Source: a virus (lineage: Duplodnaviria; Caudoviricetes). Taken from it: 64,000 nt of DNA. The position numbers and the translations under genes were made by a program. The stretch lies in IMG/VR virus record IMGVR_UViG_3300028533_000484, positions 1-64,000 of that record; one strand, given 5' to 3'. Below are positions 43,200 to 43,325 of this stretch, piece by piece. Each line of letters opens with the position of its first letter. The first letter of the stretch is position 1. Below the pieces are notes generated by a model that was given only the letters and a program-made list of their open reading frames with translations, was not told the DNA's origin and made no database searches.

Positions 43200-43325
43200 G
43201 TGCCAAAGCTGTTCCTATTTCAAAGGACTGTTAATCCGTGGGTCGTTGGTTCGATTCCAACCTGACTTCGAAATTAAGTAGAAGCAGTAGCTCAGTGGTA
43301 GAGCAACGCAAAATACAGCTCGCAC
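43200..43325 (+). ncRNA. Stem-motif RNA 4 enclosing a circularly permuted tRNA-Asn(GTT)
   Basis: GGA-CTGTTAA-TCC, then GTTGG-TTCGATT-CCAAC, loop-closed acceptor CTGACTTC..GAAGCAG, then D arm GCTC-AGTGGTA-GAGC. Confidence 0.85.

What the first reader, a model, noticed from the sequence alone, without database searches (positions are those of the whole stretch)
43200..43325. Second permuted tRNA (Asn, GTT) with the same breakpoint
Seen: GGA-CTGTTAA-TCC, variable loop, T arm GTTGG-TTCGATT-CCAAC, acceptor CTGACTTC / 11-nt loop / GAAGCAG with one bulge, then D arm GCTC-AGTGGTA-GAGC, inside the same stem motif. The tRNA body differs from copy 1 but the permutation point is the same. Inference: this is a selected design, possibly made by capturing the 3' part of one tRNA and the 5' part of the next from tandem tRNA genes.
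Basis: partly seen in the sequence, partly recalled or inferred. Interest (0 to 1): 0.8.

Follow-up and report, generated by a model that had tools for sequence, protein, structure and literature searches.

The report
Inside-out asparagine tRNA mimic on handle
This stretch of a huge phage encodes a small RNA that is a complete asparagine tRNA written back-to-front, sealed at its amino-acid end and mounted on a conserved "handle" helix, and that handle always lies next to one unknown protein family, which points to an undescribed RNA-protein particle similar in logic to Ro60/Y RNA.

Summary
Window 43200-43325 (+) runs anticodon hairpin (GTT), variable loop, T arm, acceptor stem closed by an 11-nt loop, then D arm, all inside a bulged stem. 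After de-permutation ARAGORN calls tRNA-Asn(GTT) with score 119.

It is probably not a working tRNA. Orthologues close the acceptor with a GAAA tetraloop, and the phage has a normal tRNA-Asn.

The stem is a conserved handle: RGC-AWA-6 bp-UCCUAUU...U-6 bp-C-GCY. There are four copies in this array and seven in the record. My covariance model finds it in 16 of 18 viral records tested, including complete 411-424 kb phages.

Handle cargo varies: short loops, anticodon limbs, T/acceptor minihelices, whole tRNA-like bodies, and eight permuted tRNAs.

No Ro60 (TROVE), DUF2828 or splicing endonuclease was found. Instead a handle lies just upstream of one 600-700 aa protein family with a TerD-like C-terminal domain and no Pfam match. 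This holds in all 10 viral records carrying the gene and in 6-7 of 8 contexts chosen by protein homology alone. The gene is here at 9183-11246.

The layout equals YrlA, but it fails YrlA membership.

This scan has noted analogous handle-plus-tRNA-mimic families with other partners (DUF2828, DUF7873) on other DNA. This handle-protein pair differs from those.

The parts
43200..43219 (+). Handle, 5' side: outer stem GTGC, 3-nt bulge CAA, 6-bp inner stem AGCTGT, conserved unpaired UCCUAUU
   Evidence: Sequence. Covariance model R1 hit 43198-43327 at 29.6 bits. Covariation measured on 34 copies.
43225..43239 (+). Anticodon hairpin GGA-CTGTTAA-TCC (anticodon GTT 43230-43232), followed by GT (tRNA positions 42-43)
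   Evidence: Sequence. Blastn matches to phage tRNA-Asn genes. ARAGORN calls Asn(gtt) after de-permutation.
43240..43261 (+). Variable loop GGGTC and T arm GTTGG-TTCGATT-CCAAC
   Evidence: The T stem shows a compensatory change in L001 (GATGG/CCATC).
43262..43287 (+). Acceptor stem closed by an 11-nt loop: CTGACTTC / GAAATTAAGTA / GAAGCAG, 7 bp with one bulged A and no CCA
   Evidence: Orthologues have an 8-bp stem closed by GAAA.
43288..43308 (+). U8-A9, D arm GCTC-AGTGGTA-GAGC, A26, then ACG (positions 27-29) that can pair with CGT 43237-43239
43315..43325 (+). Handle, 3' side: ACAGCT, bulged C, GCAC; a T run follows
41593..41712 (+). Sister RNA: the same handle carrying a permuted tRNA-Met/Ile(CAT) mimic with its acceptor closed by a 6-7 nt loop
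   Evidence: ARAGORN 117.9 after de-permutation; 38.8 bits.
42393..42447 (+). Sister RNA: the same handle with only a 24-nt AU-rich loop
   Evidence: 58.8 bits.
43059..43180 (+). Sister RNA: the same handle enclosing an un-permuted tRNA-Arg(TCT)-like body with encoded CCA
   Evidence: 39.4 bits.
9136..9172 (+). Degenerate handle-like hairpin (TTTC-AAA-GGCAGT-UC...U-ACTGCC-C-GAAA) in the leader of the partner gene; its 3' arm runs into the AGGAG ribosome-binding site
   Evidence: sequence; R1 14.6 bits, weak. The position is the same as that of strong handles in homologous loci.
9183..11246 (+). Candidate handle-binding protein, 687 aa: helical N-terminal region plus TerD-like C-terminal domain; no Pfam, PHROG or NCBIfam match

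Best explanation
The element is a gene for a roughly 125-nt non-decoding RNA. It is a full tRNA-Asn body with an authentic CUGUUAA anticodon loop, an intact D/T elbow and an acceptor end sealed by a loop. This body is grafted, through a break in the 5' strand of its anticodon stem, onto a conserved bulged 'handle' helix formed by the RNA's own 5' and 3' ends. The handle defines a family of small RNAs in the tRNA arrays of huge phages and in some bacterial-looking contigs, and their apical cargo is an interchangeable tRNA part. Inferred steps: (1) the RNA is freed from the tRNA polycistron when the flanking tRNAs, 2-7 nt away, are cut by RNase P and 3' processing enzymes; (2) the handle is bound by the 600-700 aa TerD-domain protein encoded at 9183-11246, which also carries a handle in its own mRNA leader, suggesting autoregulation or co-transcription; (3) the tRNA-shaped cargo engages a protein that recognises tRNA-Asn or its anticodon loop, acting as decoy, adaptor or tether in the way Y RNAs act for Ro60, plausibly in the conflict over tRNA cleavage and repair. 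Shown here: the anatomy, its conservation, handle covariation, and the gene-RNA linkage. Not shown: transcription, RNA ends, protein binding, or the target.
For: Anatomy and tRNA identity.

Sealed acceptor: orthologues close it with a GAAA tetraloop on a perfect 8-bp stem, and six pairs change compensatorily.

Decoding not needed: a canonical tRNA-Asn(GTT) lies at 94560-94635 of the same record, with normal Met(CAT) and Arg(TCT) genes. L001 also has a normal tRNA-Asn.

Handle: there are 7 copies in the record, all on the + strand. On 34 copies, 99% of cells are paired and the covariation score is 0.645 against 0.205 for shuffles, 0 of 500 shuffles reaching it; the outermost pair was not imposed by my filter and still covaries. 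R1 hits 16 of 18 viral records.

Cargo series: it includes anticodon limbs alone, T/acceptor minihelices alone, and tRNA bodies with a GNRA tetraloop in place of the anticodon loop. None of these can decode.

Partner gene: homologues at 38-51% identity lie directly downstream of a handle in all 10 viral records that carry the gene, and the gene is absent from the two handle-negative records. In contexts picked by protein homology alone, a handle ends 13-60 nt before the start codon in L110, L111, L113, L124, L126 and L127, weakly in L125, and lies 2.9 kb away in L115. Four of these loci have no tRNA gene at all.

Neighbours: RNA-repair genes lie nearby, namely a Pnkp-like gene, Rnl1, an AAA_33 kinase, and RtcB in relatives.

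Topology: the same layout occurs in YrlA and in the Caulobacter phage CcrPW RNAs beside a TROVE gene, one of which also shows a CTGTTAA loop.
Against: There are no expression, RNA-end or binding data. The MFE fold is only modestly better than shuffles (z -1.8) and does not recover the short anticodon hairpin. The handle pairing statistics come partly from copies I selected for pairing. The leader hairpin in this window is degenerate (14.6 bits). Two incomplete records (G004, G007) have handles but no detected partner gene. The partner's N-terminal region has no recognisable RNA-binding fold. The rejoined sequence is a near-perfect tRNA and relatives encode RtcB, so maturation to a real tRNA is not excluded.
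Confidence: 0.6

Rival explanations
1. It is a true circularly permuted tRNA gene. The handle brings the two ends together, an endonuclease cuts them and a ligase such as RtcB joins positions 29 and 30. RNase P and a 3' nuclease then open the acceptor loop and CCA is added, giving a working tRNA-Asn.
For: Joining ACG (43306-43308) to GA (43226-43227) restores a perfect 5-bp anticodon stem, and ARAGORN scores the product at 119. The same holds for the other seven permuted cargos. RtcB is encoded in all three complete handle-bearing phages, 1.5 kb from a handle in G009 and G010.
Against: No tRNA-splicing endonuclease was found in 13 records. The handle is not a bulge-helix-bulge motif: it has 3-nt and 1-nt bulges flanking 6 bp. 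Break points differ between copies, 28/29 to 31/32. The acceptor is capped by a GNRA tetraloop with no CCA in orthologues and has a bulged A here. A canonical tRNA-Asn exists in the same record. The same handle carries cargo that can never become a tRNA. RtcB is common in jumbo phages regardless of this RNA (PMC7824862).
Confidence: 0.12
2. It is an ordinary Y RNA of the YrlA type that binds Ro60/Rsr, supplied by the host or by an unsampled part of the phage genome.
For: The layout is identical to YrlA, and the Rfam YrlA model aligns end to end at 34 bits here and 46.9 bits in L001. Caulobacter phage CcrPW has a very similar permuted Asn-like RNA beside a TROVE gene. GUUCCUA matches 5 of the 7 bases of the metazoan Ro-contact sequence GGUCCGA (by eye; motif from PMC4201824).
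Against: The score is far below the YrlA gathering score of 69 bits. The bacterial Rsr motif GNCGAAN0-1G is absent. No TROVE match was found in this record or in 16 handle-bearing records, three of them complete, and no DUF2828 either. The handle tracks a different protein family.
Confidence: 0.1
3. The stems are processing or termination signals of the tRNA operon, or the ends of a small mobile cassette. The permuted tRNA is then a decaying rearranged pseudogene with no function of its own.
For: The handles lie 2-7 nt from tRNA genes, many have only short AU-rich loops, and several are followed by T runs.
Against: The tRNA fold is kept by compensatory changes between orthologues. All tertiary-contact bases are intact. 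Invariant unpaired nucleotides in the handle argue for specific recognition. Handles also occur without any tRNA gene nearby, directly before the partner gene. T runs are not universal.
Confidence: 0.08

Closest known systems
YrlA (Y RNA-like A; Rfam RF02553; Chen et al. 2014, PMC4201824), partner of bacterial and phage Ro60/Rsr
   Same: Both are small RNAs whose 5' and 3' ends form a protein-binding stem. Both carry a tRNA-like module in the same permuted order: T arm, loop-closed acceptor, D arm. Both are encoded next to their partner protein gene and near RNA-repair genes. The Rfam model aligns over its full length.
   Different: The score is below the family threshold. The stem motif is different (UCCUAUU handle, no GNCGAA). 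There is no TROVE gene. The linked protein has a TerD-like domain. A real 7-nt anticodon loop is kept here. The same handle also carries tRNA sub-domains and un-permuted tRNA bodies.
YrlA-like RNA array of Caulobacter phage CcrPW (MH588545.1, about 116.2-116.5 kb) upstream of its TROVE gene gp146c
   Same: One member is a permuted tRNA-Asn-like RNA with a CTGTTAA loop, a closed acceptor and a D arm. It is 77% identical to this element over 74 nt spanning the permutation junction.
   Different: That RNA sits on a long GAGGTAGAGGG/CCCTCTACCTC stem with a GGCGYAG motif, beside a detectable TROVE protein. None of these features occurs here.
Circularly permuted tRNA genes of Cyanidioschyzon merolae and other algae (from my own knowledge: Soma et al. 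2007)
   Same: The 3' half is encoded before the 5' half, with the acceptor strands linked by a short spacer. Rejoining gives a canonical cloverleaf.
   Different: The algal genes are the only genes for their isoacceptors. They use a bulge-helix-bulge motif and the tRNA-splicing endonuclease, and they mature to charged tRNAs. Here there is no such motif or enzyme, a canonical Asn gene exists, and the acceptor is capped.
Handle-tagged tRNA mimics beside DUF2828 (Ro60-like) or DUF7873 genes, noted earlier by this scan on other DNA (unpublished AI notes)
   Same: The concept is the same: one conserved closing helix, interchangeable tRNA-derived cargo, location in phage tRNA arrays, and linkage to one protein gene.
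   Different: Those notes describe a different handle (a stem plus ACAGCAA). DUF2828 is absent from these genomes. The partner here matches no Pfam family, so it is not DUF2828 or DUF7873.

Membership tests
YrlA (Rfam RF02553) | Covariance-model score at or above the gathering score (69 bits) | tested here: not met
   34.2 bits for window 43217-43338. The orthologue in L001 scores 46.9 bits.
YrlA (Rfam RF02553) | Encoded next to a Ro60/Rsr (TROVE) gene | tested here: not met
   No PF05731 match in this 140-kb record, in L001's record, or in 16 related records including three that are 98% or more complete. The positive control rang in phage CcrPW.
YrlA (Rfam RF02553) | Rsr-binding motif GNCGAAN0-1G in the 5' strand of the stem (PMC4201824) | tested here: not met
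   The motif is absent from 43198-43327; the definition comes.
YrlA (Rfam RF02553) | tRNA-like domain in the order T arm, loop-closed acceptor, D arm, on a stem formed by the RNA ends | tested here: met
Permuted tRNA genes matured by splicing (C. merolae type) | Bulge-helix-bulge motif at the joined termini and a tRNA-splicing endonuclease | tested here: not met
   The handle has a 3-nt bulge opposite a 1-nt bulge and a 6-bp helix. PF01974 is absent from 13 records.
Permuted tRNA genes matured by splicing (C. merolae type) | 3' half upstream of 5' half, with rejoining that yields a canonical tRNA | tested here: met
   ARAGORN calls tRNA-Asn(gtt), score 119.3.
Permuted tRNA genes matured by splicing (C. 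merolae type) | A mature, CCA-tailed, aminoacylated product | not testable with these tools
   This needs tRNA sequencing or acid-gel Northern blots of infected cells.
UCCUAUU-handle RNA family (defined here, model R1) | Match to the handle covariance model: outer stem, 3-nt bulge, 6-bp stem ending GU, UCCUAUU, then U-AC...-C-GC | tested here: met
   29.6 bits, E 1.8e-7 with filters off. This copy was not in the seed alignment A1.
UCCUAUU-handle RNA family (defined here, model R1) | The genome also encodes the TerD-domain partner protein with a handle in its leader | tested here: met
   Gene at 9183-11246, 39-51% identical to homologues that follow handles. The leader hairpin at 9136-9172 is weak.
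Ro60-like fold of the partner protein | HEAT-repeat ring plus vWA domain | tested here: inconclusive
   The AlphaFold model (pLDDT 80) has a TerD-fold C-terminal domain, Z 9.2 to 2qz7. The helical N-terminal part gave no match above Z 6.6 and Ro60 was not listed.

The most novel reading that the evidence does not exclude
Huge phages and some bacteria possess a previously undescribed ribonucleoprotein system. One protein (helical domain plus TerD-like domain) binds a family of small RNAs through a shared UCCUAUU handle. Each RNA displays a different tRNA part: a whole inside-out tRNA with a real anticodon loop, an anticodon limb alone, or an acceptor/T minihelix alone. The particle would thereby intercept or recruit specific tRNA-recognising factors, such as anticodon nucleases, tRNA-modifying enzymes or repair enzymes. 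This would be functionally parallel to Ro60/Y RNA but evolutionarily independent of it.
Probability: 0.4. Interest if true: 0.85.

Novelty: new variant of a known kind. Interest (0 to 1): 0.7.

Why it matters
tRNA mimicry by small RNAs is so far tied to Ro60 and its Y RNAs, whose bacterial function is still poorly understood. This work finds the same RNA design on a different handle, linked to a different and unannotated protein family with more than 1,000 metagenomic homologues.

The cargo forms a natural series that dissects the tRNA into its recognisable parts and retains true anticodon loops, Asn most often. That gives a directly testable handle on two questions. Which tRNA-binding factors do phages need to neutralise or recruit? 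Is "tRNA part on a protein handle" a general strategy in the conflict over tRNA cleavage and repair?

It also warns annotators that such genes are missed by tRNA finders and by Rfam.

Tried and rejected
- **Rfam.** A scan of the array at E up to 10 returned only tRNA and sub-threshold YrlA. No existing family covers the handle.
- **Protein families absent.** TROVE, DUF2828 (with no positive control available) and the tRNA-splicing endonuclease were not found.
- **Flanking ORFs.** The search for related loci with the two ORFs flanking the array found no relatives.
- **Array neighbours.** Pfam showed only CYTH and PD-(D/E)XK near the array and nothing RNA-related. Neighbours of the partner gene in this window gave only ThyX and a methylase fragment.
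- **RtcB neighbourhood.** In G009 it contained no recognisable extra repair gene.
- **Partner protein.** Pfam, PHROGs and NCBIfam gave no match. The ESM Atlas found only unnamed viral clusters and a weak TerD lead. Fold searches of the N-terminal half gave only generic helical matches.
- **Motif readings rejected by inspection.** I considered a kink-turn and a bulge-helix-bulge reading of the handle: there are no tandem G·A pairs, and the spacing is wrong.
- **Other elements rejected.** A CRISPR-repeat or integron attC reading did not fit: there is no sequence or architecture match, and all copies lie on the transcribed strand of the tRNAs.
- **Bacterial genomes.** A scan of 185,579 species genomes for one handle variant gave 25 chance hits and three real contigs, all from one uncultured Treponema MAG.
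- **Literature.** Searches found no description of this handle or of permuted tRNAs in phages apart from Y RNAs. Subscription-only papers were not searchable.

Full report
**1. The observation**

The window's tRNA array (41.2-43.5 kb) holds eight ARAGORN tRNAs and seven Rfam tRNA hits, none of them covering 43200-43325.
- GGA-CTGTTAA-TCC, then a five-base variable loop.
- A GTTGG-TTCGATT-CCAAC T arm.
- An acceptor helix CTGACTTC/GAAGCAG, with one bulged A, closed by an 11-nt loop.
- U8-A9 and a GCTC-AGTGGTA-GAGC D arm.
- The bases needed for the tRNA elbow are present: G18 G19, T54 T55 C56, and G15 with C48.

Joining the part after the D arm (ACG) to the part before the anticodon loop (GA) restores a perfect 5-bp anticodon stem. 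ARAGORN then calls tRNA-Asn(GTT) with score 119.3. The 3' part matches annotated tRNA-Asn genes of many phages at 84-95%.

Among the phage's own 35 tRNAs, the de-permuted sequence is most like the canonical tRNA-Asn at 94560-94635. Identity is 78% overall, 86% for the 5' half and 73% for the 3' half. The two halves therefore do not come from different isotypes.

**2. The stem is a conserved handle**

The element is enclosed by GTGC-CAA-AGCTGT-TCCTATT ... AT-ACAGCT-C-GCAC.
- The same motif with covarying stems encloses three other elements in this array: 41593-41712, 42393-42447 and 43059-43180.
- Three more lie in the second array of the 140-kb record, and all seven are on the tRNA strand.
- Pattern scans of IMG/VR recovered dozens more copies.

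On 34 short-cargo copies (alignment A1):
- The ten handle pairs are 99% paired.
- The covariation score is 0.645 against 0.205 for shuffles, and 0 of 500 shuffles reach it.
- All shifted registers collapse.

Part of this result is by construction, because I chose 3' partners by complementarity. The outermost pair and the invariant U before the 3' arm were not imposed, and they still covary or are conserved.

A covariance model built from A1 (R1) gave these results:
- It finds the handle in 16 of 18 viral records, including complete 411-424 kb genomes, with up to ten hits each. The two negative records were chance hits of the text pattern.
- With filters off it scores all four copies of this array: 58.8, 39.4, 38.8 and 29.6 bits. 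The last is the finding, which was not in the seed.
- In 185,579 bacterial and archaeal species genomes, one handle variant occurred only on three contigs of an uncultured Treponema MAG.

**3. What the handle carries**

Cargo falls into classes:
- Short AU-rich loops.
- A D arm plus anticodon arm (the anticodon limb).
- A T arm plus closed acceptor (a minihelix).
- Un-permuted tRNA bodies with encoded CCA, several of which have a GNRA tetraloop where the anticodon loop should be.
- Eight permuted tRNAs: Met CAT, Asn GTT twice, Leu TAA twice, Gly CCC, Thr GGT and Phe GAA. ARAGORN scores are 107-122 after de-permutation.

The break always lies in the 5' strand of the anticodon arm. It is at 28/29-29/30 in both copies of this window, in L001-3870 and in L025-1757. 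It is at 31/32 in four others.

A heuristic survey of 132 unique handles finds an anticodon-like 7-nt loop in about half, with GTT the commonest.

**4. Conservation of this element**

L001, L118 and L119 (identical to each other) and L122 carry the same handle with a permuted Asn mimic. Its anticodon loop is TTGTTAA.
- The T stem differs by a compensatory pair.
- The acceptor stem has an unrelated sequence but is a perfect 8-bp helix closed by GAAA.
- RNAalifold recovers the handle, T arm, acceptor hairpin and D arm, with six compensatory pairs.
- L001 also has a normal tRNA-Asn.

A capped acceptor without CCA, plus a canonical isoacceptor in the same genome, argues for a non-decoding RNA.

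**5. Comparison with Y RNAs**

The Rfam YrlA model aligns end to end with the element (34.2 bits, threshold 69), matching the T arm, closed acceptor and D arm.

Caulobacter phage CcrPW has three such RNAs directly upstream of a TROVE (Ro60) gene. One of them is a permuted Asn-like RNA 77% identical to ours across the junction. The layout is therefore the known YrlA layout.

Membership fails on the other criteria:
- The bacterial Rsr motif GNCGAAN0-1G (PMC4201824) is absent.
- No TROVE gene exists in this record or in 16 related records.
- DUF2828, the Ro60-like partner that earlier notes of this scan reported for another handle, is also absent.

**6. The partner gene**

In G006 and G008, tandem handles are followed at once, on the same strand, by homologous ORFs of 641 and 582 aa. 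Their homologue in this window is the 687-aa ORF at 9183-11246 (39% identity, E 6e-155).

That ORF is preceded by a degenerate handle-like hairpin whose 3' arm abuts the ribosome-binding site. A first-reader note on this window had suggested the same link.

Evidence for the linkage:
- The gene is present in 10 of the 16 handle-bearing records. That count includes all three complete genomes.
- It is absent from both handle-negative records.
- In every one of the 10 records a handle lies roughly 20-90 nt upstream of the gene.
- In eight further contexts chosen only by protein homology, a handle ends 13-60 nt before the start codon in six. It is weak at the same place in one and 2.9 kb away in one.
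- Four of these loci have no tRNA gene at all, so the link does not depend on tRNA arrays.
- One context looks chromosomal (S21, YqeY, a sigma-54 activator, TyrRS) and has a handle on both sides of the gene.
- Neighbours include a Pnkp-like phosphatase-kinase, T4-type RNA ligase 1 and an AAA_33 kinase.
- RtcB is present in all three complete phages.

The protein matches nothing in Pfam, PHROGs or NCBIfam. Its AlphaFold model (pLDDT 80) has a C-terminal TerD fold: Foldseek probability about 1 to 3ibz, and Z 9.2 to 2qz7. The helical N-terminal half has no clear relative.

**7. Reading**

The best-supported explanation is a Y-RNA-like tRNA mimic: a handle for a constant protein and a tRNA-Asn-shaped module for a variable target. 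Processing of the neighbouring tRNAs, 2-7 nt away, would release it. Binding, processing and target are inferred, not shown.

The main rival, maturation to a working tRNA through cut-and-ligate, keeps some weight because the rejoined sequence is so good and RtcB is available. It has no endonuclease, no consistent break point and no free acceptor end, and it cannot explain the other cargo classes.

This scan has recorded analogous handle-plus-mimic families with other partners on other DNA. This handle and this protein are different from those.

Noticed in passing
window 43331-43404: A tRNA gene directly after the element scores 51 bits on the Rfam tRNA model, but ARAGORN cannot assign an anticodon ('???', tc). 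It may be another non-decoding tRNA-like RNA.
   Followed up: no
window 42120-42390 and 42830-42975: ORF-free stretches contain T-arm-like hairpins (for example GGTCCAGGTTCGAGTCCTGG, AAGGTTCGAGTCCTT) and a duplicated GGCCTGACGATA motif. No tRNA is called there. These may be further tRNA-derived RNAs without the handle.
   Followed up: no
L094 3858-3971; L098 2545-2659 and 9955-10070; L100 16822-16939; L010 3606-3719: Handles enclose un-permuted tRNA bodies with encoded CCA whose anticodon loop is replaced by a GNRA tetraloop (GCAA or GAAA). These are tRNA shapes that cannot decode.
   Followed up: partly
L015 4949-5008: Handle cargo that is only an anticodon stem-loop, ACGGA-CTTTAAA-TCCGT. The triplet UUA would read the UAA stop codon, so this is a suppressor-like anticodon mimic.
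   Followed up: no
L064, L078, L086 (contigs of an uncultured Treponema MAG, CAMPAL01): These are the only genuine handle hits among 185,579 species genomes. They are either phage contigs binned with a spirochaete or a clue to the host.
   Followed up: partly
L111 3916-3980 and 5927-6036: In a GC-rich, chromosomal-looking contig the partner gene has a handle both before and after it. It sits next to a sigma-54-dependent activator, which recalls RtcR control of the rsr-yrlBA-rtcBA operon.
   Followed up: partly
window 39775-40500: A CYTH-domain (triphosphate tunnel) protein is encoded one gene upstream of the tRNA/handle array.
   Followed up: no
L108 3267-3335 (G012 43266-43334): The handle in the leader of the partner gene carries a hairpin plus an Asn-type anticodon stem-loop (ATACA-CTGTTAA-TGTAT). 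The same cargo recurs in L001 3531-3599 and L058 4210-4278.
   Followed up: partly
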